A DNA stretch of 19,161 nt, filler included, from an uncultured virus (IMG/VR IMGVR_UViG_2049941000_000847) (2 parts of one record of this genome joined end to end with filler, not necessarily neighbours in it); one strand, 5' to 3'. Positions 1-16,689 are shown, counted from the first letter of the whole stretch. The notes: generated by a model from the letters alone, not told the origin. Program-made: numbers and translations.

Positions 1-735
1 ATGGTCGGCGGAAACACGATAAAACGCGTCGAAAGCATTGGATTGAATTCATTTTCAGTCACGTGCTCGTGGTATCTTCCAGAACAATACGCTCTCTTCT
101 GCAAAGGCATAAGAAGCCTATTCAGAATTGCATACCCAAACGAGGTAAGCCTCGGGGACTCGCTCACGACAGATGTTAAAAAACTTTTAAGCGGAAAAAT
201 GAAGGATGTTGACGAGCACTCGTCCGGACCAGAAATAAGAGATGCGGCAACAAAGGAATCCATGGAAAGTGGGTGGACGAACGCGGTCAATACCGTTACA
301 GGCGGAATAGGAAAAGCATTTGATGCGGTTCAGTGGGCAGCAACAAAGCTCGGCCTCACATTCTCAATTGACCCGAGTCCTGTGAGAGTTTCAATAGGAC
401 AATCGTGGGACCTTGAACCACTTGCTATAACAGGTCTTACCATAAAACCATCCAGAGAAACCTTCATAGAACCGACAACGCACGCTCACCTGCCTATAAC
501 GGTTGAGGTCACGATAAATCTGGACTACTGGCTCACCCCGAGAGCCGGTCAGGAAAACATGTCCATCGCCGGTCAGGAAATCTTCGGCTGGCTGCAGGAA
601 GACCGCTACAAGAACGTCATCAAAGACACCGAAAAATACGTCGCGGAAAAGAACGAAAAAATGTGGGGTCTGCTCACGCAGGACAAGCTGAACTCCGCAC
701 CAAATGCAAACAGAAGGCGCGGCGTGAACATGTAA
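1..735 (+). CDS. Probable phage baseplate / tail-tube junction protein (T4 gp48/gp54-like); 5' end may lie outside the window
   Basis: The C-terminal pattern P-VRVSIG...LAITGLTIK...LPITVEVTINL resembles tube-initiator/baseplate proteins. It lies immediately upstream of a neck gene. By-eye match only. Confidence 0.4.
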   Translation: MVGGNTIKRVESIGLNSFSVTCSWYLPEQYALFCKGIRSLFRIAYPNEVSLGDSLTTDVKKLLSGKMKDVDEHSSGPEIRDAATKESMESGWTNAVNTVTGGIGKAFDAVQWAATKLGLTFSIDPSPVRVSIGQSWDLEPLAITGLTIKPSRETFIEPTTHAHLPITVEVTINLDYWLTPRAGQENMSIAGQEIFGWLQEDRYKNVIKDTEKYVAEKNEKMWGLLTQDKLNSAPNANRRRGVNM

Positions 736-739
736 TGGC

Positions 740-746
740 TATAAAC
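740..746 (+). promoter_or_regulatory. TATAAAC putative late-promoter element upstream of neck gene
   Basis: Lies 23 nt before ATG 770. The same heptamer precedes three other genes and resembles the T4 late promoter TATAAATA. Confidence 0.45.
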
Positions 747-769
747 AGGAATAGGAGACACAAGTCATC

Positions 770-1516
770 ATGGCATCTGGAATATACATAACACGGGACG
801 ACATGGTCGAATACATCAAGGCCAGACTCGGACACCCGGTCGTCGACCTTGAACTGGAACTCGAGGAGAAGAACGGCCTTGGCCACATACACCTGGCAAT
901 AAACGACACCCTGGACTGGTTCTTCAGACATAACCAGAACGAGGCCGACTTCTCTGACTACATGGTTCTTTTCCTGAAGCCAGGCATCATCGAGTACGAC
1001 GTGCCAGAAGACGTGACCGACATAATCGACGTTGCTCCCTCGTTCGGCAACGGCTTCACGCCATGGACCGCGTTCGACGTTGGCGAAGGCGAAACCCTTG
1101 TCGCCACTACCGGTTGGAGTCAGTTCGACCTTGTCACATACACGGCCGCCATGCGATATATTTCAGACGTTAAGAAGCTGCTTGGTACACAGTACCAGGT
1201 GCGCTTCCACCCACAGGCTCACAAGGTCCGCATCCTTCCAACGCCAAGACGACCCCGAGTCGCGATGTGCAAGGTATACCGGAAAGCCGCACTGTCCGAG
1301 ATATTCGCAAACGTCTATTTCAGAGACCTCGCAGTCGCCAGAACGAAGGTGATGTGGGGTGAAATACTGACGAAGGACAGCTATAACTTCCCCGGCGGCG
1401 GCAAGGTGAACGGCGACACGCTGCTTTCAAACGCCCGCGCCGACCAGGATCGTCTCGAAAAGGAAATCATCTCCCAGAGCGCTTCTTCCGCGATCATAAC
1501 CGACCTGGACCTCTAA
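770..1516 (+). CDS. Neck (head completion) protein, T4 gp13-like
   Basis: N-terminal YIKARLGHPVVDLELE..IHLAINDTLDWF parallels gp13 ILRRLGAPIINVEL..IYDCIQRALE. C-terminal FPGGGKVNGDTLLSNARADQDRLEKEI parallels [27 protein letters not shown]. Confidence 0.85.
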   Translation: MASGIYITRDDMVEYIKARLGHPVVDLELELEEKNGLGHIHLAINDTLDWFFRHNQNEADFSDYMVLFLKPGIIEYDVPEDVTDIIDVAPSFGNGFTPWTAFDVGEGETLVATTGWSQFDLVTYTAAMRYISDVKKLLGTQYQVRFHPQAHKVRILPTPRRPRVAMCKVYRKAALSEIFANVYFRDLAVARTKVMWGEILTKDSYNFPGGGKVNGDTLLSNARADQDRLEKEIISQSASSAIITDLDL

Positions 1517-1517
1517 T

Positions 1518-2309
1518 ATGGATCAGAAGACGGATTTCGTCATACCGTTCGTGCTTAACGCCGAATACAGCTATTCGCGTGCAAATACCGGATTCGAACA
1601 CCTCGAAATCGAGTACGTCATACGCAGCATAAGGAAGTTCTGCCCATTCGCCGGCAGGATATTCATCGTCGGACCGCATATAATAAACAGCTGGCCAAAG
1701 AGCATCGCCGGCGAGATAACCTATTTGCGGGTTCCGGATAAATACACCCACATAAAGGACGCCAATCTGATAAACGCGGTGTTGTCCGTAATAAATTCGG
1801 TACCTGACCTAAGCGAAACGTTCATAATGGCCAGCGACGACCAGATAGTGACACGGGAATGCTCCCTGAAAGACTTCTATCCCAGGGTAAAATACGACAT
1901 GACCGGGCACCTGAAGGAATACAAGGCCATGATGGACACCTATAGCGAGAAGGATGGGTCCAGGAAATGGAACGAAGCCATGCTGAAGACGCTGATGAAA
2001 TTCCCGGACAGACCGTATTTTTACGAGCCGCATATATGGACCCCATTCGATAAGGCTAAGTTCGTCGATATGTGCAGGGAATACGACATAGCCCATGACG
2101 ACGGGGTCGTCATATTCACGCTTTACAACAACTATACCAAACAGACCTTGAGAGCCGACTCGGAGCATACATATCTACACGCCGGCCTGGATGATAGGGC
2201 GTTGGCGATGGCATTGAAGTCCCCAACAAGGCACATCGCGTGGACGGACAAGACGTTCAATAATAAACTATTCAGGGAATTCCTTGGAAATCTTTTGGAT
2301 TTGAGGTAA
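1518..2309 (+). CDS. Stealth-like hexose-1-phosphate transferase (stand-alone copy)
   Basis: DFVIPFV (CR1-like), EIEYVIRSIRKFCPFAGRIFIVG and VPDLSETFIMASDD (CR2-like), and YEPHIW. Starts 1 nt after the neck gene stop. Confidence 0.7.
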   Translation: MDQKTDFVIPFVLNAEYSYSRANTGFEHLEIEYVIRSIRKFCPFAGRIFIVGPHIINSWPKSIAGEITYLRVPDKYTHIKDANLINAVLSVINSVPDLSETFIMASDDQIVTRECSLKDFYPRVKYDMTGHLKEYKAMMDTYSEKDGSRKWNEAMLKTLMKFPDRPYFYEPHIWTPFDKAKFVDMCREYDIAHDDGVVIFTLYNNYTKQTLRADSEHTYLHAGLDDRALAMALKSPTRHIAWTDKTFNNKLFREFLGNLLDLR

Positions 2310-2311
2310 TC

Positions 2312-3354
2312 GTGCCTAGACGTTTCGATGTGGAAACACTGGAGGGGGCAAAAAGATCGTTTAACGAACTTGGAAGATACATCTTCGAGACATCGTGCTT
2401 CGGGATAAGGTGCAGCTTCTGCGGGAAGACAAAATACATAGAGGGAAGGTATCTTCTAAGAATTCTTGAAAAGCCCTCATTCAAATGCTCTGATTGCGTT
2501 GCAAAAGAACGCAAAGAGCGCAGGAAGCCGGCGACCAACCAAAATCTCGCCTATGATAAAACCGCATCCACAGAAACCAAAAAACAACTACAAAGCGAAA
2601 CGAACTGCGAAAAGATTGACTTCATAATACCATATGTTTTCAACGCAAAGTACAGCTTCTCGGTGGCAGTGACCAAATACGATCACACGGAAATAGAATA
2701 CGTGATAAAGAGTATAAGGAAGTTCTGTACATGGTCCAATAGAATCTTCGTAGTCGGCCCGGTGGAATCTCCGGTGTTCCCGGAATCAATAAGGGATGAA
2801 ATAATATACGTTCATTGCCCCGACCCGTACAGACACATAAAGGACGCCAATATAATAAATGCCGTGTTGCACGTTATCAAAACCGTAGACGATCTGTCCG
2901 AAACATTTATAATGGCAAGCGACGATCAGGTTGTAACGAAGCCAAGTCTGATAACGGATTTCTGGCCTAGAGTTGAACGCGACTACACTAGAAGACTATA
3001 TGTATACAAGAGAGAAATTGACCTAATACCAAATGGAAGACCTAGAAAAATATGGCGCACAGCCATGTACCACACGTTGCAAAAATTCAAAAAACGAGCA
3101 TACTTATACGAACCCCATATATGGACAAGATTTAACAAGACACAGTTCCTTGAAANNNNNNNNNNATTTACTCTATACAATAATTTTACAAAGCAGGAGC
3201 GACGAATGGTATCTGACCATATGTATTTTGGCGATAGAATTTCAAGACAAGAAGTATTGAACAAGCTGAAAAAAATACCAAGACACCTGGCATGGACAAA
3301 TACGGCGTTTAATTTAAAAGAGTTCAGGGCATATCTTAACAAAAAATTTCTATC
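2312..3354 (+). CDS. N-terminal Zn-ribbon module + Stealth-like phosphotransferase (paralog of 1518-2309); internal gap, 3' end runs into a gap
   Basis: GTG start 2 nt after the previous stop. CSFC..CSDC module, K/T/E-rich linker, then DFIIPYV / EIEYVIKSIRKFC / LSETFIMASDD / YEPHIW, colinear with the upstream paralog. Confidence 0.72.
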
Positions 3355-3535
3355 NNNNNNNNNNNNNNNNNNNNNNNNNNNNNNNNNNNNNNNNNNNNNN
3401 NNNNNNNNNNNNNNNNNNNNNNNNNNNNNNNNNNNNNNNNNNNNNNNNNNNNNNNNNNNNNNTTATAGCGAGCAAAGCAAATAGCACTACAAAATATCCA
3501 AAATTTGGCGAATTCAAGCAAAAAATAAGCACGCG

Positions 3536-3542
3536 TATAAAC
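3536..3542 (+). promoter_or_regulatory. TATAAAC putative late-promoter element
   Basis: CGTATAAACT context, 29 nt before ATG 3572. Confidence 0.45.
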
Positions 3543-3571
3543 TCTATGCGAGACAATTGCAAACATATTTC

Positions 3572-4265
3572 ATGCCTAGACGTTTCAATGTAGGGACACT
3601 GGAGGGGGCAAAAAAATCGTTTCACGAGCTCGGTAGACACCTGTTCACGACATCATACTTTGGAATAAGGTGTGATTTCTGCGGAAAAACGAAGTATATC
3701 GAAGGCAGATATCTGCAGAAACTATTAGACAATGGATCGTATAAGTGCGGAGAATGTATTTCGAAGGCTCGAAGGGAAAGATGGACTAGAACGCTAAAGA
3801 AGAGGCCCACCGACACAAAAAATACGGCAAATAATCAGGCACAAAAAATTGGCGCACAGTCGAAGGAATTTGACAAAAATAGATATGTGAATTTCTTTCA
3901 AACGTCGAATTATAGCTTAATAAAAAACAAGATAAAAGAATCCATGAAAAACTCTACAAGACAGGGTGTCACACAGTCCAATGTAATAAACAAGGAGCTG
4001 GTTGTCTCGATGACGACCACGTGGAACAGAATAAACGAGACACCGCTAGCCGTGGAAACGATATTAAATCAGCAGGTAATGCCGAATAGAATAGTTCTGT
4101 GGATCGACAAGCAACACGAGGAAAAGGAATTGCCGGCTTCAATAAAGAAACAGATGGAAAGAGGTCTAGAAGTTAGATACTGCACAGACGTTGGTCCAGG
4201 AACAAAGTTGATACCGTCTCTAAAAGAATTCCCAGAAGCCGTAATAATAACGGTGGATAGCGACA
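3572..4265 (+). CDS. N-terminal Zn-ribbon module + GT-A fold (GT2-like) glycosyltransferase, truncated by a gap
   Basis: MPRRFNV..CDFC..CGEC module, then LVVSMTT..RI..VETILNQ..PNRIVLWI..DVGPGTKLIP..IITVDSD (DxD-type motif). Start moved from TTG 3557 to ATG 3572 by alignment with the other module copies. Confidence 0.72.
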
Positions 4266-4276
4266 NNNNNNNNNNA

Positions 4277-4529
4277 TGGAACAGAGAAAACCGACATCTA
4301 TTTATGGACCAGGATGCGTTGAACGCCGTCTTTTCGGATAGTAAGAAAATAATAAACCCAAGATTCAATATGCTATGCAGATATTATGTCAAGGACATGT
4401 GCGTAATAGACTCGTCNNNNNNNNNNCACGTTACCAATAATACTGCACTTCACCGGTACAAAAAAACCAGATGCCGGAGGTACGGTTAAAAAATACGTAT
4501 ACGATTTCTATAGATCCTTGTGCCGCTAG
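4277..4529 (+). CDS. GT8-family glycosyltransferase C-terminal fragments (same gene as 3572 or a separate gene; frame offset across a 10-N gap)
   Basis: DQDALNAVF..INPRFN before the 4417-4426 gap. After it, frame 4428-4529 reads TLPIILHFTGTKKP..YRSLCR*. Both are GT8 hallmark motifs. Confidence 0.7.
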
Positions 4530-4676
4530 AGCAATACAAATGAACCATTACGTCGCGGGAAAAGATCATCTGGACCGGGGCGATATCCGGAAACAGACTC
4601 TTCCGGGATACTCAAAACACACCGAGTAAATAGGTCTGAATGCCTAAAATGACGGAAATTTGCAGATTTCCAGCCG

Positions 4677-4683
4677 TATAAAC
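4677..4683 (+). promoter_or_regulatory. TATAAAC putative late-promoter element
   Basis: CGTATAAACT context, 31 nt before ATG 4715. Confidence 0.45.
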
Positions 4684-4714
4684 TATTAGTGTTACTGTCA
4701 CGCATCCATAGGAT

Positions 4715-4855
4715 ATGCCGCCACGCATCGACATACGTAAATACAGTTCACTGAAAAACGCATTCAAGAAACTAGGAAGATATCGGTTCATGACATCTTT
4801 CATAAATATGAAATGCTCGAAGTGCGGTAAATCATATTGTATCGAGGGTAAATAG
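4715..4855 (+). pseudogene. Third copy of the Zn-ribbon module, truncated by TAG after 46 aa (not in ORF track)
   Basis: Translates MPPRIDIRKYSSLKNAFKKLGRYRFMTSFINMKCSKCGKSYCIEGK* and aligns without gaps to the other copies. The stop is 11 nt from a gap, and 4877-5227 has no continuous frame. Confidence 0.6.
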
Positions 4856-5231
4856 TACCAGGTGCGNNNNNNNNNNCACCGGATGTAAAAGCAAGCCTAT
4901 GCGCGGAGCGTCTATTTCGAAACCGAAGCACAAAACAAAACCGACCGCGGGCATATGGCTAAGCCACTTCACGCCACGGCATTTGAATTATCTGGAGGAT
5001 ATATATAACCCATTCATACTACAAAAAATTGGTACGCGAATTCGTGCATGGTTGAACGGGCCAATGGAATGCTCGACGTATATAAATGCCGGCGTGTTTG
5101 AAAAAACGGACTCATCGACTCGGAAAGATCGGATATGAACCTTCACGGAAAATGGACAAAGTGGAAAGAACTGAAAGAAAGTAGTCTAAATTTCTACCTG
5201 AACTCCTTTGAGAGAAAAGTAAAATAGCACA

Positions 5232-8065
5232 ATGCCACTCACCTTCTCCATAAACGACATCGACTCATTAAGACGAGCTTTCTACGAGCTCGGAAATCAC
5301 GTATTTATCGTATCGACTTTCAACGTGAGTTGTCATCGGTGTGGAAAGGTTGAATGTCTTAAAGGGATCGATCTTTTGAATTCCTTTGGAAAAGACTCAT
5401 ATGAATGCAGTGAATGTGCAAACATTAGAAAAACACCATGTAATAGACTCCATAAAAATGACAAACAGGTATTGAAAAACCAAAAACACGAAGAAAAACA
5501 AAAGCAGGAACAAGACAGCGCAGAAACAAAACAAAAAGAAGAGGTTAAGAGAGTAAAACAAGAAGAAAACAATTATACAAAAAACAAAGTCAATGAGTCA
5601 GCAAAACCGTTCGTTCAAAATACTGTGCAAGAAAACTACGGGATAAGATGGTGGAATGACAGGATACCGCTCCCATATACCAAAAAATCTAACGTCAGAA
5701 AGGAGTTATTTATCCACTGGTATTATGTCGATAGAGAGAAGGATGATTTGACCGATATGGAAACATTCCATGTAAATATGCTTTACAGATACAATGTCAT
5801 GGAGAGATTCGATTCGATACATATCAACATAGCGACAGATTCAACCGAAAACGTTTCGGCGTGCATGAGAACGGTAATAGACGTTCTCTCTTCCGGAAAG
5901 GCAAAACTATACTACAAAATAATTAAAAATGACCCCAAAAAATGGGAAGGCGTTACGATAAATGACGCCTTGGACTGCGCTGAGAAAAACAAAGAAGAAA
6001 CCCACGTCTACTACACGCATTTCAAAGGAGTTACACTAAAAAGAAGACACAGCGACCTGACAACGACAATAGACATAATGTACTGGTGCTTCCTAATGTA
6101 CAAGGCACTATTCGACTTTGATGGCGTTGACGTGGATTCGGAGCTACATAACGGGAAGACCGTTATAGGGCTTTTATTGAAAAACGCAACGGTAATGCTT
6201 CCAATGAAACGTTACAAAGATGGAAAAATAAAGGCCGGAGCAGCCATCGAATACATGAACGAGGGGTCCTATCTATGTTTCAGTAATACGGTGTATAAGA
6301 AAAGGGTAGCGGATCTGCACAAAAAATACGAATATGTCACTCATGAATACGTAAAAAAGAACACTGGGAGATACGCGGTTGAAGGTATGTGCACGTTCCT
6401 GTATGGTATAGATAATGTCACCTACATGACCGAGGATGTCTACAAATCCGGCATATCGTATCACCACTATACAAAAAACTTCTGTCCAAAGCTGCGGGAA
6501 GAGTTCAATAAATTCTGCAGACCGTCCATCCTGGTTTACTCCTATGCCGAAAATCTTTCCGCCAATGAATACGAATTCAACAAAGTAGACGGTGTGGACT
6601 ATATCCTATACACAGACCACGGGAAAAGCAACTATACAATAAACAGAATAGACTTCAAAAAAGGGAAAACATCATGGGAACGAAATAAGTGGTACAAATG
6701 GAATCCAGCAAATACATACGACTACGTCATCTACAGGGACATTTCCATGGACATAGAGGATGTTTATGGTTTGATAGAATCGGCCACATCCGAACACGGA
6801 ATAAATGTTCACAAGCACCCAAGCTCAAAAAGCATTGAAAACGAAAACATTGCCATAGCAAACCACTTCAGGAAACGAGGGATTCCATACGATTTCGATA
6901 TCGTTAAAAATGCTTCTGGCGAACTCTATTCTACAAAAACGGATATGGCAGAACTAACGTTGATAGTGTACAATAACAACAAACTTGACAGAAATCTACT
7001 AAAGGACATATGGGAAGACTTCATGCGGTTCGGGGCTGTTCGAGATCAACCGTCATTTAGATACACGATATTCAGAAACAACCTAGACATATCGTCATTC
7101 ACAACATTACCTGGTCACGTTCCATGGAACATCAAGTCCAGGGGCGCGGACACGGCCATTAAAAGAACCCAGTATTACAAACCATTAACCAATCAAGACG
7201 TTGCAAAAATTCGTCAAGACAAATTCAAAAAATTTTACGGTTACGAGTTCAACAAAAACAATANNNNNNNNNNNNNNNNNNNNNNNNNNNNAACAATATA
7301 AAAACATTCGAAGAAAAGAACGAGTGGTTTTCAGAAAACTGCGATCTCGATTCACTGACAAAATACGTCGATAAAATAGACGTGAGAGACTATGCAAAGG
7401 GTGTGGACGGACTAAATGTGATACCATTGCTCGGCACATATGATAAGTTTGATGATATAGACCTTGATTCATTGCCGGACAAATTCATCATAAAGTGTAA
7501 TCACGATAGCGGGTCCACCAAAGTATATGAACGAGGCATTTCAGATGTAGAAAAACTAAGAGAGTTTTTCAATAATAAAATGTCAAAAAATTACTACTAT
7601 GATTATTGGTATGAACCGCAGTATGCCCACATAACACCAAAGATCATAGTGGAAAAATTCATGGGTGATGACCTCTACGATTACAAGTTCTACTGCTTCG
7701 ACGGGAAGGTATTTTGCGCTTCCATTCAGAGCGACACTTTTACCAAAATTCGCATAAACTTCTTTGATAGGGACTTCAACGATCTGAAGGATATTTGGAG
7801 GGTGGAACACCCTAGGTCGGAAAGGAAGTTCCCGAAACCGGATAACTACGATGAGCTTGTGAGGATTGCCGAGAAGCTTGCTGAGCCGTTCTCTTTTGTA
7901 AGGGTTGACCTTTACAATATAGATGGTAAAATCTTCTTTGGTGAGCTAACTTTTACACCCGGTAATTGTAGATGCAAGTATAACGACAGAAGTTTTGATC
8001 TAAAGATGGGTTCTATCTATAATGTAACGAAGAGCGGTTTGAGAATGGCGAACGGCCAAAAATAA
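5232..8065 (+). CDS. Multidomain glycan-modifying protein (~932 aa): Zn-ribbon module + YxHxKG domain + DUF616-like glycosyltransferase + TupA-like ATP-grasp
   Basis: CHRC..CSEC; HVYYTHFKGVT; ILVYSY..DYILYTD..KWYKWNP..YRD..HKHP..RDQPSF; DKIDVRDY..FIIKCNHDSGS..DYKFYCFDGK..FVRVDLY..FGELTFTPG. The flanks of the 7264-7291 gap overlap (AACAATA) and join into FYGYEFNKNNIKTFEEKNEW. Confidence 0.72.
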
Positions 8066-8109
8066 GATTCCTGACATACTATGTCATAGAAGTAGGTCGA
8101 TGTCGGTAT

Positions 8110-8829
8110 CTATAACCACCCAAGAAACCTCTTATTTTCATGTGCTATTATGACCTGTTGTTTCATCCCATGGTAAACGTACCGCTTCATATTTTTATTC
8201 ATGGTTTTCATTTTATCGATGATAGCGTTCACAGTGTTCATTTCCCCAACCCTCTCAAAATCATCCACTATGATGATCGTATTCTCTGTTATCATACCGG
8301 CATTTAGCAGCACGTCTATCCTAGAATACTTCTTCATATCTCCACCAAAAGGACCGTCTATCACTATAAAGTCATAGTCGTCCACGACGCTCTCGAACCT
8401 GTCATACACCCTAACCGATTCTCCGTCATACTGAATCATTGTCGTCGGCAGATTGGCAAAAACAGTATTATCACCGATTATATCACCGTTGTTGGACTTG
8501 AATGCATTTATCCAGTCGATATCGCTCTCGACAACGACATGCTTTTTTCCATAGTATTTAGAGTACTGTGCAATCATCTTAGTAGTCTGCCCCATACCGA
8601 TTTCAAGTATCTTTTCCGGATGCACCTCATTTAATATTCTGTATATGAGGTATAAAAGGCTATACGAAGCTGCTCCTCCTCTTGGAGAAAACGACTTCTT
8701 CAGCAGCCACTCACTATCAAGTATGGTGTCTTTGAAAACGCTCGAAAAATGAATCTCTTTCACAAAAAGATCCAACCGATTCAGTTTCTCGAGGATAGTT
8801 CTTATGTGATCAATATCGTTTTTCGCCAT
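8110..8829 (-). CDS. Class I SAM-dependent methyltransferase-like protein
   Basis: ILEIGMGQTT (motif I), VVVESDIDW, YDFIVIDGP, IIIVDDFER. ATG 8829 is preferred over TTG 8844. Confidence 0.7.
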   Translation of the reverse strand: MAKNDIDHIRTILEKLNRLDLFVKEIHFSSVFKDTILDSEWLLKKSFSPRGGAASYSLLYLIYRILNEVHPEKILEIGMGQTTKMIAQYSKYYGKKHVVVESDIDWINAFKSNNGDIIGDNTVFANLPTTMIQYDGESVRVYDRFESVVDDYDFIVIDGPFGGDMKKYSRIDVLLNAGMITENTIIIVDDFERVGEMNTVNAIIDKMKTMNKNMKRYVYHGMKQQVIIAHENKRFLGWL

Positions 8830-8864
8830 TTGTTCATCTACCAAAAAGAGCGCTCCTACCTATG

Positions 8865-8871
8865 GTTTATA
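8865..8871 (-). promoter_or_regulatory. TATAAAC putative late-promoter element (minus strand)
   Basis: GTTTATA on the + strand, 35 nt upstream of the methyltransferase ATG 8829. Confidence 0.42.
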
Positions 8872-8917
8872 TACCAGAAGAGAAATGGCTTGATCAACCG
8901 ACCAAGCCATTCCACAC

Positions 8918-10063
8918 CTACTTCCAAATCTTCCCTCGCCATTCCTTCGGAACAACCGCTGCGTATGACCAATCTTCGACATCCTCGATCATGTTGACCG
9001 CCTCGTCGATCTCGGCTTTGGTGATGGAGTCGATTCGGCGGACCAAAGCGGAGATGTCCATCGGCTTCCGCTTGCTCAGTTCACGCTCACCTAGCACCAT
9101 CATCCGGTTCAAAGCCGATTCGTGGACAAGCCGCATCTGCCCGCAGAGCGAGTCCTTGGCGCGACGAATTTCGTCCTTCCCGAATCTGCATTTCCACATC
9201 TTCCCCATCTCTTCGCTCACGGCCTCGCACGCCAATGCGGCCTTTCCCGGTTCGGCCTTATATCCAATGCAGAACCCGATACCTTCGTCATATGTCTCCG
9301 TCATGGCGCGGATCCCATACACGAGCCCCATCTTCTCTCGCACCGTCTGGAACAACCTGGAAGACATGCCGTCGCCCATGATGTTCCGCACGATCGAGAG
9401 AGCTACCCGAGTACGCTCGTCTTCGGTAAAGATCACCGTCCCTTCCCGCACACATGCCTGGTTAACCGACATGCGCTTCGTCTTGTTCCAAGCACCGGAG
9501 AAAAACTGGTCACCAATTACCTTTCCGACGCCGGTCTTCCTGGAAAGTCCGTCTCTCACAAGCTTCACGAGTTCCGCGTGGTCCACCTTCCCCGAAGCCG
9601 CAACGACCATGGGAACGACCGCTAATACCTTTTCATGGTATTCCTTCAGGTCGTCCACTCCGATCTTCTTGATGGACGAAAGGGTTCCGATCACCGGACG
9701 ACCGAGGTTCGTACCGGCTCCCCACAGAGCCTCCTCGTACATGTCCCCAACGACACGGTCCGGCAGGTCAAGATACATCTTGGCTTCCTCCAAGATGACG
9801 CCCTTTTCCGTCTTGACATCCACAGGGTCGATCTTCGGGGAGTTGATCATCTCGCAGATCGTCTCCACCGCCGTATGCAGTTCGGAAGCCGACGTGTGCG
9901 CGTAGAAGCACGTTTCTCCCTGGGAAGTGTACGCGTTGAATTCCCCACCCTTCTCCTCGATGGACTTGGCGAGTTCCAGAGCACCCCTCTTCTCTGTTCC
10001 CTTGAAGACGATGTGTTCGAAGAAGTGTGCGAGACCGTTGTGTTCCGCACCTTCGTGTCTAGA
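8918..10063 (-). CDS. M16 (pitrilysin/insulinase) family zinc peptidase, N-terminus lost in gap
   Basis: GLAHFFEHIVFKGT (HxxEH), GGEFNAYTS, EKGVILEE, and SSRLFQTVREKMGLVY (R/Y pair). Confidence 0.9.
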   Translation of the reverse strand, partial: SRHEGAEHNGLAHFFEHIVFKGTEKRGALELAKSIEEKGGEFNAYTSQGETCFYAHTSASELHTAVETICEMINSPKIDPVDVKTEKGVILEEAKMYLDLPDRVVGDMYEEALWGAGTNLGRPVIGTLSSIKKIGVDDLKEYHEKVLAVVPMVVAASGKVDHAELVKLVRDGLSRKTGVGKVIGDQFFSGAWNKTKRMSVNQACVREGTVIFTEDERTRVALSIVRNIMGDGMSSRLFQTVREKMGLVYGIRAMTETYDEGIGFCIGYKAEPGKAALACEAVSEEMGKMWKCRFGKDEIRRAKDSLCGQMRLVHESALNRMMVLGERELSKRKPMDISALVRRIDSITKAEIDEAVNMIEDVEDWSYAAVVPKEWRGKIWK

Positions 10064-10073
10064 NNNNNNNNNN

Positions 10074-10822
10074 ATCATGCTGATCTTCCCGTTTCTCTCT
10101 ACGGTTCTGATGTACGTCGTGAACCCACAGCCGAAACAGCTCAATGCGGTGAACATCGACACGGGATACATCTTCACCCCTTCGTCTATTCCATCCGTAG
10201 TGAAGTCGTTGAAGATGACGGTCGTTTCAGGATTGATGGTACGAGTGGACTGCTCGTTCCGGATGCCTTTCATGTAAATCATGACGGACCCACCGCTCAC
10301 ACGAAGACCGCACACATCGGCACCGCCCATCAGCTTCGAGTCGGTGAGAATCGCCTTGATAGTATCGTCGTCGCAGCAGAACTTGCCGACAAGAGTGGTC
10401 TTGTCCACTTCCGGTCTCGCGGGAACCATTCTGAACTTGCCTTCGGTGAACTCGTCGGGAGAACCGACCGGCATGCGGTACTTGACACCCTTGCCGGTGA
10501 ACTTGAAGAACACCGTCTCGATGGACGACCTAGACGTTTCCTTGGCGATGTCCACCTCGTACACGTCCTGCTTGCCGCATGCACGGATATAGGAGATGAA
10601 CTCGTTGATGTTGGTGATGTAGATCTCGTCGTCGTCGAACGACAGGTCGCTTTCCGGTAGCTCCACGTGCACGGTGGTTCCGCTGTTGACGGAGCTGATC
10701 ATCGACTTGCCGTTTTTCTTGAAGAACATTACCTCGTCGCACCCGGACGCCTTGACAAGCGACGACAGGATCTTCATGAAATCGACCGACATTCTGAGCT
10801 TTGAAATCTTGTTCTCTTCCAT
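10074..10822 (-). CDS. Phage DNA polymerase sliding clamp, T4 gp45-like; C-terminus lost in gap
   Basis: ISSVNSGTTVHVELPESDLSFDDDEIYITNINEFISYI parallels gp45 IMTRAVNGTTYAEANISDVIDFDVAIYDLNGFLGIL. Start placed at 10822 because only this ATG is shared with the variant copy at ~10999. Confidence 0.65.
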
Positions 10823-10831
10823 GGTATCCAT

Positions 10832-10860
10832 AATATAGTATTTTTCGGGCGAGATATGAA
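10832..10860 (-). promoter_or_regulatory. Putative sigma70-like promoter TTCATA-N17-TATATT for the clamp gene
   Basis: The -35 is at 10855-10860 and the -10 at 10832-10837. The variant copy keeps TTCATT-N18-TATATT and the 9-nt spacing to ATG. Confidence 0.45.
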
Positions 10861-10890
10861 AAAGATCCGGGAACCTTTCGGTCCCGGATC
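10859..10890 (-). terminator. Rho-independent terminator after tmRNA 3' end (copy A)
   Basis: Minus strand reads GATCCGGGACC-GAAA-GGTTCCCGGATC followed by TTTTT. Confidence 0.75.
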
Positions 10891-10898
10891 ATGTAGTC

Positions 10899-10980
10899 TG
10901 GAGGTGAGGGGATTCGAACCCCTGTCCAAAAACGCATCCCCGGTCGCTCCTACAAGCTTTCCCCCTGTTTTGGTTCTCGC
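10899..10980 (-). repeat. Duplicate of tmRNA 3' 82 nt (variant allele)
   Basis: Identical to 11074-11155 except at one position (10930 A vs 11105 G). Ends at a 10-N gap. Confidence 0.85.
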
Positions 10981-11036
10981 NNNNNNNNNNTTCTTCCATG
11001 GTACTTGTAATATAGTATTTTTCGGACGGCATAATG

Positions 11037-11068
11037 AAAAAATCCGGGCCCTTTTCGGTACCCGGATT
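11037..11068 (-). terminator. Rho-independent terminator after tmRNA 3' end (copy B)
   Basis: Minus strand reads AATCCGGG-TACCGAAAAGGG-CCCGGATT followed by a T run. Confidence 0.75.
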
Positions 11069-11073
11069 ATATC

Positions 11074-11380
11074 TGGAGGTGAGGGGATTCGAACCCCTGT
11101 CCAAGAACGCATCCCCGGTCGCTCCTACAAGCTTTCCCCCTGTTTTGGTTCTCGCACGCACCCGCTCCCATAGGGGTTGGATCGGACACATGCCAGCCTT
11201 TGAAATCTCGATGTCGTGTCCAAGGCGTCCATGACATCCAGCCCCACTAGATGGCTGTCGTTTTCACCTGTGAGGCGGTGGTTCGACGACAGGGTTGCCG
11301 TTAATTAGGCAGCCATTGCGTAAGTGTCAGTGGCACTTATCTTTTTTCCGGTTTTTAAAGAGGCCACCGGAGACCTCTGC
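11074..11380 (-). ncRNA. ssrA: tmRNA, 5' end missing at contig edge; tag peptide ATDTYAMAA (11334-11305)
   Basis: PK1 (GAGGTC/GGCCTC, TCCGGT/ACCGGA). ATAAGT-GCC resume context and tag ORF GCC ACT GAC ACT TAC GCA ATG GCT GCC TAA. H5 hairpin GGCTGCC/GGCAACC and AAGCTTGTAG. T-arm GGACAGGGGTTCGAATCCCC and acceptor 3' strand CACCTCC-A (U70 alanine identity). CCA is not encoded. Confidence 0.95.
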
Positions 11381-11480
11381 NNNNNNNNNNNNNNNNNNNN
11401 NNNNNNNNNNNNNNNNNNNNNNNNTTAATTAATTAANNNNNNNNNNNNNNNNNNNNNNNNNNNNNNNNNNNNNNNNNNNN
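11381..11480. other. Artificial contig-concatenation spacer
   Basis: N44 + TTAATTAATTAA (stops in all six frames, 11425-11436) + N44 = exactly 100 nt. Confidence 0.92.
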
Positions 11481-11771
11481 AGTGAAATTAACTTCGGCGA
11501 ATCGAACAAAAGGTTTGTCGTAAAGAAATTTCGAAATTTCTACAGTGGTGGGAAGAATGACGAGACGATCACTGAAAACGAAGACGCATCCGCATCTATG
11601 TTTATCGGAGAGAAATTCACTACGGTGTACAGACCGATCGAGAATGTGTTCATGGTGACTCTTAATCCTTCGTTCAAAAAGTCTTGTGGAAATATGACGA
11701 AAGACGAGTGCATGTTGGCTGCTCTTTTACTTGGCTTCGGACTTGTGGCAGTTGCAGCCTCCGGAAGGTGA
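11481..11771 (+). CDS. Hypothetical protein, C-terminal fragment with hydrophobic tail (not in ORF track)
   Basis: Open frame from the contig edge: SEINFGESNKRFVV...ECMLAALLLGFGLVAVAASGR*. Confidence 0.5.
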   Translation, partial: SEINFGESNKRFVVKKFRNFYSGGKNDETITENEDASASMFIGEKFTTVYRPIENVFMVTLNPSFKKSCGNMTKDECMLAALLLGFGLVAVAASGR

Positions 11772-11789
11772 GTCGCGGNNNNNNNNNNA

Positions 11790-12260
11790 TGGCATGTCCC
11801 GACTCCCGAAGAATGGTATCGGATTCAGAAGAATGTCCTTGTCTCCTGCTACAAGCGGAACGACAACGACGAGTACCACGACTTCGATTCCGGGGCGTCT
11901 CTCGCCGAGAACAAGTTCACCGCTCTCTTCGACAAGGAAGCGTGGAAAGACGCTGTGATCGACAAGTCGCCCGACGAAATTCCGGTGTTCGAAGACGCCA
12001 TCGGGTTCGGCATCAAGCCGACTCACCTCAACAAGCGGTTCCCGGGATTCAACTTCGCCCTGTATTGGACGGATCTCGGGAGGTCCACGGCCGCCAAGGC
12101 GGTGCACAACAAGTTCAAGGACGAAGAGACCGGGACGGAACCCAGGTTCATCTTCAACCGGTTGGACGTTTCCCCTACGTCCAAAGCCGCGGACACGTTC
12201 GTGCTGCCCGGCAAGACCGGTCCCATCGGTCTTGGGTGCATCCGTCTCGTGAAAGATTAA
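11790..12260 (+). CDS. Fib_succ_major (FISUMP)-like domain protein, C-terminal fragment
   Basis: The frame extends upstream of track ORF 11955 to the gap: WHVPTPEEW...DAIGFGIKP...ALYWT...CIRLVKD*. Confidence 0.75.
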   Translation, partial: WHVPTPEEWYRIQKNVLVSCYKRNDNDEYHDFDSGASLAENKFTALFDKEAWKDAVIDKSPDEIPVFEDAIGFGIKPTHLNKRFPGFNFALYWTDLGRSTAAKAVHNKFKDEETGTEPRFIFNRLDVSPTSKAADTFVLPGKTGPIGLGCIRLVKD

Positions 12261-12290
12261 CAACAAAAAAACAACAAAAGGAGGCAAAGC

Positions 12291-13121
12291 ATGTTTGAAA
12301 ACGAACAGGAACCCGAACTCCCCACCGACGGCTCCGGCATCTTCGCCCGAGATCCCGGCAAGTCCGATATCATCCAGGCCCTCGCCGAGAAATGGGGCTG
12401 CAGCGTCGATGAAGCCTGCGAACGCATCGGAATGAAGCGTCCCGATCCCACCGATTCCATCGACGCGGCCGACAGGTATGGCGTCGATGTCGTCGGGTGC
12501 GACGAGGATTTCGAGGACGAGGATTTCGAGGACGATGAGGTCAGCGAGGAGGAGGCCCGCGCCAACGTGGAAAGGATCATCGCCGACGTCGAAGAAAACT
12601 TCAGAGACGTGGCCATTGATCCCGTCGCTGGAGCCGGAAACCTCCCTCCATCGTTCGATCACAATCCCATCATCGGCGAGTGGAATGGCATCCCCGAGGC
12701 GGATGACGTTGGTGACGAAGACGATCAAGACATCTATGATGAGGACGATGATGACCTGGTCGGTGGTGATGGCCTTTCCGGACATGGTCATCGGTTCGAG
12801 GTCGTGGACGAACATCTTGACCTCCTTGGAGCAAGCAAGTTCGGAAAGGACAATACCGAAGCGACCATTGTCTTCATGGTGGATGACTATGAAGAGGAGG
12901 ACGAGGCGTACTTCGATATCGTCGTCAAGCTCAGCAACATCACCTGGAACGGTCGGAGGATCAACACCTATACGATCGACAGCGTGGACCTGCCCGATCT
13001 CGACGACTACGACGAGTCAATGATCCCCGACAGTGCCGCGGACATCGACCGGCTCAAGGAAGATGCGAAGCGGTTGCTGCCCAGGCTGAAAATCGACAAC
13101 AACGGCGAGCTGGAAATCTAA
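12291..13121 (+). CDS. Highly acidic hypothetical protein
   Basis: AAGGAGG SD, D/E-rich tracts and phage-like codon usage. Confidence 0.8.
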   Translation: MFENEQEPELPTDGSGIFARDPGKSDIIQALAEKWGCSVDEACERIGMKRPDPTDSIDAADRYGVDVVGCDEDFEDEDFEDDEVSEEEARANVERIIADVEENFRDVAIDPVAGAGNLPPSFDHNPIIGEWNGIPEADDVGDEDDQDIYDEDDDDLVGGDGLSGHGHRFEVVDEHLDLLGASKFGKDNTEATIVFMVDDYEEEDEAYFDIVVKLSNITWNGRRINTYTIDSVDLPDLDDYDESMIPDSAADIDRLKEDAKRLLPRLKIDNNGELEI

Positions 13122-13130
13122 CCAGCCGCT

Positions 13131-13161
13131 CGGCACCGGTGAAAGGGGTTGACCGGTGCCG
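13131..13161. promoter_or_regulatory. GC-rich intergenic hairpin without U-tract
   Basis: Perfect 10-bp stem CGGCACCGGT / ACCGGTGCCG. Confidence 0.55.
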
Positions 13162-13187
13162 TAAACAACCCCATAAAGGAGAACACA

Positions 13188-13295
13188 ATGGCAAAGAAAG
13201 GCAACAGCGGGAAGAAGATCCGGATCTGGTGCAGAGAAAGTGGAGCGCGCTATGAAATGAAGAAGACCAAGAAGTCCAAGCAGTCCAAGAAGTGA
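13188..13295 (+). CDS. 35-aa basic mini-protein, weak resemblance to the N-terminal half of ribosomal protein bL33 (not in ORF track)
   Basis: AAGGAG SD. Translates MAKKGNSGKKIRIWCRESGARYEMKKTKKSKQSKK*. Confidence 0.55.
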   Translation: MAKKGNSGKKIRIWCRESGARYEMKKTKKSKQSKK

Positions 13296-13366
13296 AGTAG
13301 CAACGGTCGCCGAAAGGCGAAACAAACCAACACCAAACGGGTCCTCAAGGACCCAAGGAGTTCAAA

Positions 13367-13789
13367 ATGGAAGGCGGAAACATCGTGTACACGTCCTGCT
13401 TCGGAACGGTTTACACCGGAGAAATGATGACTCGCGTCGAGATCGATGAACCCAGCGTCGGCGCTGCCGAAAACGGAAACGAGGGACGCGTCTTCGTCCT
13501 CGGAGAGGATTGGATGAAAGTCTCCATCCTCACCGATGAGGTGGTCAGCCACGTGCTCGCGGGTCGTCGGTACAGCCCGATCGACATCATCACCGTTTGG
13601 GGGCACGTCAACCACAATCGGAAGTGTCTGGACAAGTTCGTCGCCTCCATCGGAAATTCGATCGTCCTCGGGAAGAAGTGCAATCTCGTCACTCTTCTCG
13701 ATCCGGTCGACATCGACAGCGACAGGGCGATAAGCATCCTCAAGAGGATCTTCATCACCGAACACAACACCATCGTAACCGGCGAATAG
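13367..13789 (+). CDS. Hypothetical protein
   Basis: AAGGAG SD; fits the tandem gene array. Confidence 0.75.
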   Translation: MEGGNIVYTSCFGTVYTGEMMTRVEIDEPSVGAAENGNEGRVFVLGEDWMKVSILTDEVVSHVLAGRRYSPIDIITVWGHVNHNRKCLDKFVASIGNSIVLGKKCNLVTLLDPVDIDSDRAISILKRIFITEHNTIVTGE

Positions 13790-13807
13790 CCAAAGGAGGA
13801 AAGAAAA

Positions 13808-14200
13808 ATGGATTTCAGCAAGATTCGGTTCACTCTCGGTCTGTATCTCGGAGATGACGCAGTTGTCGAGAAGTGCATGTCGGATGACAAACTTTTCGAC
13901 GCGTTCAATGAAGTGCGAGGGATCGGTTATCCCCACCTCTACAGCGAGGAGGACGACAAGCCGTATCTCGACATCAAAGAAGTCGAGAAGATCGCCAAGG
14001 AGCTGAACAAGTGCTGCAAACCTGGCAGCGGACTCGAAATCAAGTACGAGCACCACAATAATCGTATCGATGCTTATGTCTGTTTAGTTGGCGAACCCTG
14101 CATGTGGAGACTCCGGTTCACCGCCAAAGCCGATCAGCTTCCCACTGAACAGGAAATGTGCGAGATCGAAACCGGAATGAAAGAAAACACCCTGGCCTGA
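13808..14200 (+). CDS. Hypothetical protein
   Basis: AAGGAGG SD; fits the tandem gene array. Confidence 0.75.
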   Translation: MDFSKIRFTLGLYLGDDAVVEKCMSDDKLFDAFNEVRGIGYPHLYSEEDDKPYLDIKEVEKIAKELNKCCKPGSGLEIKYEHHNNRIDAYVCLVGEPCMWRLRFTAKADQLPTEQEMCEIETGMKENTLA

Positions 14201-14213
14201 AGGAGGACATTGA

Positions 14214-14384
14214 ATGTACGAAGTCGGCGACAAGATCGAGATCATCTCGATGGAAGGCGAGGTCGGATACGACGGACGCGTCGGTGTTATCACACACATC
14301 GACGACTGGGGTCAGCTCCATGGAACGTGGGGCGGACTCGCCGTCCAGCCCGAACGGGACCGGATCAAGAAGGTGGTCGAATGA
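14214..14384 (+). CDS. DUF4314-like small protein (56 aa; not in ORF track)
   Basis: AAGGAGG SD. Translates MYEVGDKIEIISMEGE..GRVGVITHIDDWGQLHGTWGGLAVQPERDRI. Confidence 0.75.
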   Translation: MYEVGDKIEIISMEGEVGYDGRVGVITHIDDWGQLHGTWGGLAVQPERDRIKKVVE

Positions 14385-14473
14385 TCGACACTGTCGCGAA
14401 AACTCCCTGGATGGGGGACGGAATCCCGTCCCCCTCCGAAAACTGAATGAAACCCATCAACCTGGAGGATCTA

Positions 14474-14665: not shown

Positions 14666-14685
14666 AAACAACAGGAGGTCAACTC

Positions 14686-15024: not shown

Positions 15025-15041
15025 CAAAAGGAGAAACCAAA

Positions 15042-15406: not shown

Positions 15407-15431
15407 CAAACCATCAGAAAGGAGATTTCAA

Positions 15432-16568: not shown

Positions 16569-16590
16569 ACCAAAACCAAAAGGAGGCGAC

Positions 16591-16674: not shown

Positions 16675-16689
16675 AACAAAGGAGGCAGC

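What the first reader, a model, noticed from the sequence alone, without database searches (positions are those of the whole stretch)
2312..5417. One ~62-aa Zn-ribbon 'tag' heads four phage glycan-cluster genes with unrelated catalytic domains
Seen: genes starting at 2312, 3572, 4715 and 5232 all begin with a module that aligns without gaps: MP at 1-2, F17, LG 20-21, F25, S28, C34xxC37GK, G45, then C59xxC62. The 4715 copy stops at residue 46. In the three intact genes a K/E/N/T/Q-rich linker follows, then unrelated domains: Stealth-like (2312), GT-A/GT8 (3572), and YxHxKG + DUF616-like + TupA-like (5232). Established: cellular Stealth, GT2, GT8 and TupA proteins are not known to me to share such an N-terminus. 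Inference: the module is a portable docking address that recruits captured host glyco-enzymes to one substrate or scaffold, such as the assembling virion, a growing glycan complex or phage DNA. That would be a modular phage glycosylation system I do not recognise as described.
Basis: partly seen in the sequence, partly recalled or inferred. Interest (0 to 1): 0.88.

Follow-up and report, generated by a model that had tools for sequence, protein, structure and literature searches.

The report
Shared zinc-finger tag on phage glycan enzymes
Four neighbouring genes of a large rumen phage start with the same small zinc-binding domain but continue into different sugar-handling enzymes, which suggests a swappable address tag whose target is still unknown.

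Summary
Genes at 2312, 3572, 4715 and 5232 all begin with a ~65-aa C4 zinc module. One 8,372-nt contig in two runs spans 1500-8100 across every N gap, so the copies are not stitched from different genomes. The "truncated" 4715 copy is a scaffold artefact: the real gene encodes 146 aa with an intact tag. The 5232 gene runs in frame into the TupA ATP-grasp ORF.

The tag is very rare. I found ten proteins, all N-terminal, in six architectures built from Stealth, GT-A, GT8, an uncharacterised domain and ATP-grasp modules. Tags have been swapped independently of the catalytic domains.

The tag matches no Pfam family. It is probably a distant single-copy relative of the CapR/DUF4379 treble-clef fingers, the DNA-binding arms of phage homing endonucleases.

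Gene context is structural. The cluster sits in the neck-gene operon and shares a TATAAAC promoter-like motif with it.

The best reading is a portable docking domain. Its target is unresolved: nucleic acid by homology, virion by context.

The parts
740..746 (+). TATAAAC promoter-like motif 24 nt upstream of the neck gene
   Evidence: All 4 TATAAAC sites in the window (both strands) end 20-32 nt upstream of an ORF start. The same motif lies about 20-30 nt upstream of the neck gene in 5 of 5 close relatives, L001-L005.
770..1516 (+). Neck / head-tail adaptor gene, first gene of the operon that runs into the glycan genes
   Evidence: PHROG 211 'head-tail adaptor Ad2', E 3.6e-15. Weak match to T4-type gp13 neck protein chains, E 0.03.
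1518..2309 (+). Untagged Stealth-like paralogue, abutting the neck gene
   Evidence: Stealth_CR2, 47 bits against a cut-off of 39.4. 55% identical to the catalytic part of gene 2312. GC3 0.67, like the core genes.
2312..3354 (+). Tagged gene 1. Tag 2312-2509, basic linker, then the Stealth-like domain. The end lies just inside the N run 3355-3462. Full product is P0001, 359 aa.
3536..3542 (+). TATAAAC motif 30 nt upstream of gene 3572
3572..4489 (+). Tagged gene 2. Tag 3572-3769, linker, GT-A-like domain, GT8 domain. 967 nt are hidden in the N run 4266-4275. Full product is P0002, 637 aa.
4677..4683 (+). TATAAAC motif 32 nt upstream of gene 4715
4715..5138 (+). Tagged gene 3. An intact tag plus an ~80-aa C-terminal domain of unknown family. 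The window shows a false stop beside the N run 4867-4876. Full product is P0004, 146 aa.
5232..8065 (+). Tagged gene 4, about 932 aa. Tag 5232-5426, K/E/Q-rich linker, 'domain X' plus a GT-like region, and the TupA-like ATP-grasp domain (7292-8062). The N run 7264-7291 hides no sequence.
8110..8844 (-). Convergent gene with weak methyltransferase-like matches and its own TATAAAC site (8871-8865). A possible glycan methyltransferase.
   Evidence: All matches are below cut-off: Cons_hypoth95 E 0.0047, IRX15/GXM E 0.032, AAA_31 E 3e-5. Motif.

Best explanation
The module is a lineage-specific, interchangeable N-terminal C4 zinc finger. It is predicted to have a small alpha/beta head followed by a treble-clef-like zinc knuckle. 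It most likely descends from the CapR/DUF4379-type fingers that serve as DNA-binding arms of phage homing endonucleases.

In a small clade of large rumen phages it is joined, through a flexible low-complexity linker, to soluble enzymes of one glycan-building pathway. These include sugar-1-phosphate transferase (Stealth), GT-A, GT8, a further GT-like domain and an amino-acid-ligating ATP-grasp.

I read it as a docking adaptor that brings these sequentially acting enzymes to one shared macromolecular target late in infection. My single best guess for what the finger itself binds is nucleic acid, that is phage DNA (about 0.35). A virion or assembly protein is close behind (about 0.3).

Shown: the module, its rarity, its strictly N-terminal position, its exchange between catalytic partners, the enzymes' solubility, and the link to the structural operon.
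Inferred: homology to CapR, any binding at all, and the target.
For: Family size and position. There are ten tagged proteins, and the tag is N-terminal in every one.

Architectures. Six were seen: tag-Stealth; tag-GT-A-GT8; tag-GT-A-Stealth; tag plus an 80-aa domain; tag-X-GT-like-ATP-grasp; and a divergent tag-X-GT-A.

Tag exchange. P0002 and P0006 are 66.5% identical in the catalytic part, but their tags are 36% identical. The P0002 tag is 67-70% identical to tags on GT-A-Stealth proteins.

Conservation and fold. The zinc ligands are conserved in all nine aligned tags, and S28 and G45 are too; the tenth (P0021) keeps them in the pairwise alignment. The AlphaFold2 model is confident, mean pLDDT 83.7.

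Solubility. None of the eight proteins scored before the script stopped has a membrane segment. The highest 19-residue hydropathy is 1.17.

CapR link.
- hhalign of the tag profile against 26 CapR/DUF4379 repeats gives probability 89%, score 32.2, over 53 columns. The reversed control scores 15.0 and 30 column shuffles score at most 14.8.
- The same result holds against 4 repeats that all pass the Pfam CapR and DUF4379 cut-offs.
- L20, G21, C34, C37, G38 and L48 fall at identical positions in both.
- The four DUF4379-type mitoribosomal chains that rank 1, 2, 3 and 6 for a CapR-repeat model rank 2, 21, 18 and 15 of 48,161 chains for the tag model.

Known function of CapR domains. They bind DNA in CapR, in T5orf172 homing endonucleases and in CasPR anti-CRISPRs. 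I read passages of 10.1101/2023.03.23.533998 and 10.64898/2026.02.23.707548.

Structural and late context. Genes 1518 and 2312 directly follow the neck gene. Genes 3572 and 4715 carry the TATAAAC motif that also precedes the neck gene, both here and in 5 of 5 close relatives.
Against: No binding was tested.

The CapR link is weak in several respects:
- The tag gets no Pfam hit to CapR or DUF4379, even at E up to 10.
- The CapR repeats used were themselves picked out by the tag profile, so the comparison is partly circular.
- Predicted secondary structure agrees only from residue 29 onwards. The N-terminal halves differ.
- A CapR-repeat model has 66 strong BFVD matches, and none of the 50 listed is in the tag model's top 50.
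- The tag model's best scores are weak: Foldseek E 0.07-0.28 and VIA Z 3.5.

Charge does not point to DNA. Net charge of the finger ranges from -3 to +12, and one linker is strongly acidic at -9, so there is no conserved basic surface.

A common target is not obvious. The four tags within this one genome are only 33-68% identical, which fits poorly with one identical target.

The tag is not indispensable. An untagged Stealth paralogue sits in the same operon.

Against DNA as the target. None of the 20 ORFs scanned in the window matches a base hydroxymethylase, TET or C5-methyltransferase family. Untagged homologues lie beside tail genes in 4 of 5 loci annotated.
Confidence: 0.45

Rival explanations
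1. Virion-docking tag. The finger binds a structural protein or assembly intermediate (neck, whisker, tail fibre or capsid). The enzymes then build a glycan on the virion, as phage-encoded glycosyltransferases do in some mycobacteriophages and chloroviruses.
For: - The cluster is in the neck-gene operon and shares its promoter-like motif.
- Untagged GT-A-Stealth homologues sit next to tail or tail-fibre genes in 4 of 5 annotated metagenome loci. The fifth locus has UDP-glucose dehydrogenase and an epimerase.
- At least seven catalytic domains, plus a possible methyltransferase, suggest a complex glycan.
- The enzymes are soluble, and no exporter or lipid-carrier enzyme matched in the window.
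- Virion glycosylation in mycobacteriophages is reported by Freeman et al. 2023. I saw this only as cited in PMC12619734.
Against: - No partner has been identified, and co-folding could not be run.
- The nearest relatives of the finger bind nucleic acid.
- Relatives that share the neck gene have neither the tag nor the glycan genes at this position.
Confidence: 0.3
2. Enzyme-complex tag. The fingers bind one another, or bind the small tag-only protein P0004 as a hub. This would assemble the enzymes into one multi-enzyme glycan factory.
For: - The zinc-knuckle half gives sub-threshold matches to the ClpX N-terminal zinc finger: 14.9-16.5 bits against a cut-off of 27, and PDB E 0.2. I recall, from no call, that this domain is a dimer.
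- One member, P0004, is little more than a tag.
Against: - All the ClpX matches are below threshold.
- Tags within the genome are as little as 33% identical.
- No oligomer prediction could be made.
Confidence: 0.12
3. No targeting role. The tags would be leftovers of homing-endonuclease DNA-binding arms that spread by recombination. They might persist as recombination handles for swapping enzyme cassettes or as autoregulators of their own genes.
For: - The tag is CapR-like.
- Homing-endonuclease zinc-finger repeats are reported to promote recombination and domain shuffling (10.1101/2023.03.23.533998, passages read).
- Tags 1 and 2 share 71% DNA identity over 196 nt.
- Tags have been exchanged between genes.
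- The island has a lower GC3 than five of the seven core genes measured.
Against: - The zinc ligands and core residues are kept in all ten tags despite 33-36% identity between types. That argues for selection on the folded domain.
- The tag is always in frame and always N-terminal.
- No nuclease domain accompanies any of them.
Confidence: 0.1

Closest known systems
CapR homology domain / DUF4379 / DUF723 zinc fingers (Pfam PF21817, PF14311, PF05265) of phage homing endonucleases, the PLE CapR repressor and CasPR anti-CRISPRs
   Same: - A ~63-aa unit with a CxxCG ... CxxC zinc site. The LG, CxxCG and LL landmarks fall at the same positions.
- Profile-profile probability is 89%.
- Both models share the same top PDB neighbours.
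- Both are phage-borne, modular and prone to shuffling.
   Different: - The tag gets no Pfam hit.
- The second CxxC lies 5 residues further away.
- The predicted N-terminal half differs.
- The tag is always a single copy, not an array.
- It is fused to glycan enzymes instead of nuclease, AP2 or HTH domains.
- DNA binding has not been tested.
ClpX N-terminal C4 zinc finger (PF06689)
   Same: The CxxCGK ... CxxC knuckle followed by a helix. Weak matches in 4 of the 6 proteins scanned and to PDB ClpX chains.
   Different: All matches are below threshold: 10.9-16.5 bits against 27. The tag has an extra ~30-residue N-terminal part and a different cysteine spacing.
Phage DNA glycan hypermodification clusters (glycosyltransferases next to C5-methyltransferase/TET or hydroxymethylase genes; 10.1101/2023.12.21.572611)
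   Same: Phage-encoded GT-A-type enzymes that add several sugars in sequence to a polymer inside the cell.
   Different: - No methyltransferase, TET or hydroxymethylase family matched among the 20 ORFs scanned in the window.
- The main text of that paper never uses the words zinc, DNA-binding domain or N-terminal.
- Stealth and TupA domains are not part of those pathways as far as I read.
Glycan gene clusters of jumbo phages and virion glycosylation systems (PMC7824862; Freeman et al. 2023 as cited in PMC12619734)
   Same: Several paralogous glycosyltransferases clustered in large phage genomes. Here they lie beside structural genes.
   Different: Neither source, in the passages I read, describes a common N-terminal domain shared by the different enzymes.

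Membership tests
CapR homology domain / DUF4379 (PF21817, PF14311) | Scores above the Pfam gathering cut-off | tested here: not met
   No CapR or DUF4379 row for three of the four window tags, P0001, P0002, P0004 or P0005 at E up to 5-10. Four genuine repeats score 35 bits against cut-offs of 24.2 and 24.5.
CapR homology domain / DUF4379 (PF21817, PF14311) | Profile-level sequence similarity over the whole ~63-aa unit | tested here: inconclusive
   hhalign gives probability 89%, E 2e-6, 51-53 columns. Controls score at most 15.0 against 32.2. However, the repeats were found with the tag profile, so the test is partly circular.
CapR homology domain / DUF4379 (PF21817, PF14311) | Same fold | tested here: inconclusive
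   For: the two models share four DUF4379-type PDB neighbours, with Z 2.3-2.9 for the tag and 2.9-4.5 for the repeat. Secondary structure agrees from residue 29 on. Against: the top-50 BFVD lists do not overlap, and the N-terminal halves differ.
CapR homology domain / DUF4379 (PF21817, PF14311) | Binds DNA through a zinc-coordinated finger | not testable with these tools
   Four cysteines are conserved in all ten tags. Net charge ranges from -3 to +12.
ClpX C4 zinc finger (PF06689) | Scores above the Pfam gathering cut-off (27 bits) | tested here: not met
   10.9-16.5 bits. Best PDB ClpX chain E 0.21.
Stealth (hexose-1-phosphate transferases) | Conserved region CR2 (PF11380) above cut-off | tested here: met
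   P0001 scores 42.0-42.2 bits and ORF 1518 scores 47 bits, against a cut-off of 39.4. P0005 and P0018 fall just below, at 38.7 and 37.3 bits. The scans covered all Pfam-A models and listed only CR2.
Glycosyltransferase family 8 (PF01501) | Domain above cut-off | tested here: met
   P0002 scores 108.5 bits and P0017 scores 99.4 bits, against a cut-off of 24.3. Most of this domain is hidden in the window's N gap.
TupA-like ATP-grasp (PF14305) | Domain above cut-off, and part of the tagged gene | tested here: met
   166 bits against a cut-off of 25. The in-frame join is shown by contigs of three runs (X1, X2, X6), by the open frame and by P0020.
Phage DNA glycan hypermodification pathway | Glycosyltransferase next to a base hydroxymethylase, TET-type dioxygenase or C5-methyltransferase | tested here: not met
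   None of the 20 ORFs scanned in the 19-kb window matches such a family. The rest of the genome is not available. It is perhaps about 400 kb, judging from CheckV figures for relatives.

The most novel reading that the evidence does not exclude
The fingers keep the DNA-binding role of their homing-endonuclease ancestors and tether a whole set of polysaccharide-type enzymes to phage DNA. The enzymes are sugar-1-phosphate transferases, GT-A/GT8 transferases, an amino-acid ligase and a methyltransferase. The phage would then write a complex phospho-glycan onto its own genome. That would be a DNA hypermodification assembly line addressed by a swappable DNA-docking tag. Sugar-phosphate and uronic-acid decorations on phage DNA have a precedent that I recall, from no call, in Bacillus phage SP-15.
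Probability: 0.15. Interest if true: 0.9.

Novelty: new variant of a known kind. Interest (0 to 1): 0.6.

Why it matters
If the tag is an address label, it shows a simple way for phages to assemble a multi-enzyme glycan pathway. The phage fuses one small, exchangeable zinc finger to whatever catalytic domains it acquires. Polymorphic toxins reuse one trafficking domain in a comparable way.

It would also be the first case known to me of a homing-endonuclease DNA-binding finger recruited by metabolic enzymes rather than by repressors. My four literature searches on zinc-ribbon or CapR-type fingers and the passages I read found CapR-type domains only on nucleases, repressors and anti-CRISPRs.

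Finding the target would tell what large rumen phages glycosylate, whether DNA, the virion or the host envelope. It would also give a handle for redirecting glycosyltransferases.

Tried and rejected
Searches for the tag that found nothing:
- tblastn of the tag against 50,697 phage records: no match.
- Tag patterns in IMG/VR: 43 pattern matches, none confirmed.
- P0002/P0006 alignment in IMG/VR and in JGI metagenomes: none confirmed.
- P0021 in IMG/VR: only a 34%-identical GT-A stretch in a giant-virus bin.

Relatives without the tag:
- Nine IMG/VR loci share the neck gene (47-72% identity). No tag and no other window gene lies within 10 kb, and 0 of 5 whole records match. Those records are only 11-39% complete, so this is weak evidence.
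- Ten metagenome loci carry GT-A-Stealth homologues. None has a tag at E up to 0.1.

Structure and feature searches:
- Tag model against the PDB by Foldseek: best E 0.28.
- VIA wide: best Z 3.5, a PHD finger.
- BFVD: best E 0.07.
- ESM Atlas with the tag: only small unnamed phage zinc-finger clusters, score at most 0.90.
- PHROGs with the six tags: an unnamed family (phrog_5602) matched 4 of 6, best E 3e-4.

Tools that gave no answer:
- No whole genome is held.
- The alignment of six tags was too diverged for a pattern scan.
- ARAGORN found no tRNA or tmRNA, although Rfam finds a tmRNA.
- Earlier notes of this scan held nothing.
- The published version of the Cell Reports DNA-glycan paper is not held, so I read passages of the preprint instead. 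Supplements of bioRxiv preprints were not seen, and they may list domain architectures.

Idea rejected:
- That the tags are phage-native while the catalytic parts are freshly captured. GC3 is the same in both, 0.43-0.50.

Full report
WHAT THE WINDOW IS

The 19,161-nt window is a scaffold with twelve N runs. Between two 44-N runs lies TTAATTAATTAA at 11425-11436. I recognise this, from recall, as a six-frame stop linker used to concatenate contigs. The window is therefore two contigs, 1-11380 and 11481-19161. No whole genome is held for it.

The stretch 1500-8100 is present in bovine gut metagenome runs of one sample, which may be the source. It is also present at 0.18-0.66 of sampled words in sheep metagenome runs of a second study.

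The neck gene at 770-1516 has relatives in nine IMG/VR contigs, at 47-72% identity. Five whole records, of 40-165 kb, are rated only 11-39% complete by CheckV. This points to a very large phage, perhaps around 400 kb. That figure is my inference.

Yes. The four N-termini align without gaps, with twelve invariant positions that include C34xxC37GK. The long copies also carry C59xxC62. A profile of the four tags retrieved true relatives at E 5e-14 to 2e-33 among 1.84 billion proteins.

One 8,372-nt Logan contig, in each of two runs, covers 1500-8100 and bridges every gap. Sheep-metagenome contigs cover many parts of the stretch, 25 of their 33 laid pieces at 99% identity or more and the rest at 95-99%.

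The same data correct three points:
- The 10 N at 4266-4275 stand for 967 nt, so gene 3572 encodes the 637-aa protein P0002, with a GT-A-like and a GT8 domain.
- The stop after codon 46 of gene 4715 is an artefact of garbled sequence beside the gap at 4867-4876. The real product is P0004, 146 aa, with a complete finger and an ~80-aa tail that equals ORF 4899-5138.
- The 28 N at 7264-7291 hide nothing. The frame runs on from 7256 into 7292 and through the TupA ATP-grasp domain. An independent ENA protein, P0020, shows the same fusion.

HOW WIDE IS THE FAMILY?

It is very narrow.
- The profile search of 1.84 billion representatives gave five true hits.
- Two word-indexed searches of 5.8 billion clusters raised this to nine proteins, counting P0017.
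- A search with the middle of gene 5232 turned up a tenth, P0021. Residues 2-64 of P0021 align without gaps to tag positions 3-65 (hhalign probability 92%), with the same cysteine spacing.
- Nothing was found in 50,697 phage records or in IMG/VR.

All ten tags are N-terminal. The architectures are:
- tag-Stealth (P0001)
- tag-GT-A-GT8 (P0002, P0006, P0017)
- tag-GT-A-Stealth (P0005, P0018, P0019)
- tag plus a small domain (P0004)
- tag-X-GT-like-ATP-grasp (gene 5232)
- tag-X-GT-A (P0021)
These rest.

Untagged versions of the same enzymes exist:
- ORF 1518 in this operon, 55% identical to the Stealth part of gene 2312.
- Ten metagenome loci with GT-A-Stealth fusions, 39-51% identical.
- P0022, which has domain X plus a GT2/GT92-like domain.

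THE TAG IS PORTABLE

The nine tags aligned fall into four types that are 33-45% identical to one another, and P0021 (29% identical to the tag profile) is a fifth.
- Type A (56-86% identical within the type) sits on Stealth, on GT-A-GT8 and on GT-A-Stealth.
- The orthologues P0002 and P0006 are 66.5% identical over 499 catalytic residues, yet carry type A and type B tags that are 36% identical.
- Tags 1 and 2 of the window share 71% DNA identity over 196 nt.

So tags have moved between genes independently of the enzymes. The zinc ligands, S28 and G45 have stayed fixed throughout.

Tags and catalytic parts have the same GC3, 0.43-0.50. Five of the seven core genes measured, and the untagged Stealth, have 0.67-0.85; ORF 1-735 and the M16 part have 0.535 and 0.568. 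The island therefore looks imported as already tagged genes, not as host genes newly fused to a native tag.

WHAT THE TAG RESEMBLES

Pfam gives only sub-threshold ClpX zinc-finger matches, 10.9-16.5 bits against a cut-off of 27. The PDB sequence search gives ClpX at E 0.2.

AlphaFold2, run on the six-sequence alignment, gives a confident model with mean pLDDT 83.7. The order of elements is strand 4-8, helices 10-20 and 22-27, strands 29-33 and 40-44, and helices 45-51 and 60-69. The model has no significant neighbour in the PDB or BFVD.

The weak tail of the profile search was informative. Four of its ten weak hits are arrays of Pfam CapR, DUF4379, DUF7836 and DUF723 repeats (three of them also match restriction-endonuclease-like families below cut-off).
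- Twenty-six such repeats align to the tag profile over 53 columns. Probability is 89% and the score is 32.2. The reversed control scores 15.0 and 30 column shuffles score at most 14.8.
- The result repeats with four repeats that each pass the CapR and DUF4379 cut-offs.
- L20, G21, C34, C37, G38 and L48 fall at the same positions in tag and repeat.
- A model of a repeat has the same element order as the tag from residue 29 on, but a different N-terminal half.
- The repeat model's top PDB neighbours are four DUF4379-type mitoribosomal chains, at ranks 1, 2, 3 and 6. For the tag model they rank 2, 21, 18 and 15 of 48,161 chains.

Against the link:
- The repeats were selected by the tag profile in the first place.
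- The repeat model's 66 strong BFVD hits, mostly homing-endonuclease-like proteins, none of whose 50 listed rows is in the tag's top 50.

I put homology to the CapR/DUF4379 superfamily at roughly two in three. According to passages I read, CapR domains are zinc-finger DNA-binding domains. They occur in T5orf172 homing endonucleases, in the satellite-encoded capsid repressor CapR and in CasPR anti-CRISPRs.

CONTEXT

- The neck gene (PHROG 211, E 3.6e-15) is followed directly by the untagged Stealth gene and then by gene 2312.
- TATAAAC occurs four times in the window, on both strands. Each site ends 20-32 nt upstream of an ORF start: the neck gene, 3572, 4715 and, on the minus strand, 8844.
- The same motif precedes the neck gene in 5 of 5 close relatives.
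- By analogy with T4 late promoters, which I recall from no call, I infer late co-expression with structural genes.
- None of the eight proteins of the cluster and its relatives that the script scored has a membrane segment.
- No lipid-carrier transferase, flippase or exporter family matched among the 20 ORFs scanned.
- In five annotated loci with untagged GT-A-Stealth homologues, four have tail or tail-fibre genes nearby. The fifth has UDP-glucose dehydrogenase and a sugar epimerase.
- Relatives that share the neck gene carry ART-PolyVal, GNAT, DUF5661 and HNH genes in place of the glycan island.

HOW IT MOST LIKELY WORKS

The shown facts are these: strict N-terminal position, flexible linker, conserved zinc core, exchange between enzymes of one pathway, soluble enzymes, and structural-operon context. 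They fit a docking adaptor that co-localises sequentially acting enzymes on one target.

What the finger binds is inferred, not shown.
- Homology points to nucleic acid.
- Context and the number of catalytic domains point to the virion.
- The variable charge of the finger (-3 to +12), one acidic linker and the divergence of tags within the genome argue against one simple shared surface.
- No hydroxymethylase, TET or C5-methyltransferase family matched in the window. This is the context that defines known DNA glycan pathways.

My weights are: nucleic-acid docking about 0.35, virion-protein docking about 0.3, tag-tag or hub assembly about 0.12, and a vestigial or regulatory remnant about 0.1.

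NOVELTY AND VERDICT

The finger is a new, very small subfamily. It is probably derived from a known superfamily, and it sits in an architecture I did not find described. Four literature searches on zinc-ribbon or CapR-type fingers and passages of five papers found no zinc finger shared by different glycan enzymes.

I rate it a new variant of a known kind, with interest 0.6.

Noticed in passing
window 11081-11401 (-), and 10897-10980: A phage-borne tmRNA gene (Rfam RF00023, 67 bits against a cut-off of 47), although ARAGORN reports none. An 84-nt, 99%-identical copy of its 3' end, plus a 79%-identical copy of the neighbouring gene start, lie across the N gap at 10981-10990. This looks like two strain variants scaffolded in tandem.
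   Followed up: partly
window 11381-11480: TTAATTAATTAA sits between two 44-N runs. This is a contig-concatenation linker, so the window is two contigs whose adjacency is not established.
   Followed up: partly
window 740, 3536, 4677 (+), 8871 (-); L001-L005 about 9960-9975: TATAAAC lies 24-32 nt upstream of four ORF starts in the window. It also lies upstream of the neck gene in five relatives. It is a candidate promoter element for this phage group.
   Followed up: partly
window 8918-10831 (-): The 637-aa ORF is two genes run together across the N gap at 10064-10073. The C-terminal part is an M16 peptidase (Peptidase_M16 92 bits, M16_C 69.5 bits). The N-terminal 252 aa have no family; I guessed a sliding clamp from the sequence, but nothing confirmed it.
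   Followed up: no
window 15510-15619 and 18374-18483: A 110-nt direct repeat at 92% identity. The second copy ends exactly at the N gap at 18484, so it may be an assembly artefact.
   Followed up: no
window 15390-16568 and 17130-18212 (+): Two ORFs share a GWRLP-type motif. One gives a weak Fib_succ_major match (E 0.0066), which may hint at a Fibrobacter- or Bacteroidota-like host.
   Followed up: no
L001 12079-16073; L003 12074-13717: In relatives that share the neck gene, the slot taken here by the glycan island holds large proteins with ART-PolyVal, GNAT and DUF5661 domains (polyvalent-protein-like) and an HNH endonuclease. The slot seems to be a variable cargo region.
   Followed up: partly
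L014 10734-11957 and 14938-15891: On a 363-kb metagenome contig, an untagged GT-A-Stealth homologue sits beside UDP-glucose dehydrogenase and a nucleotide-sugar epimerase. This suggests uronic-acid chemistry in this enzyme family's pathways.
   Followed up: no
window 12291-13121 (+): A 276-aa, strongly acidic (D/E-rich) protein with no family match.
   Followed up: no
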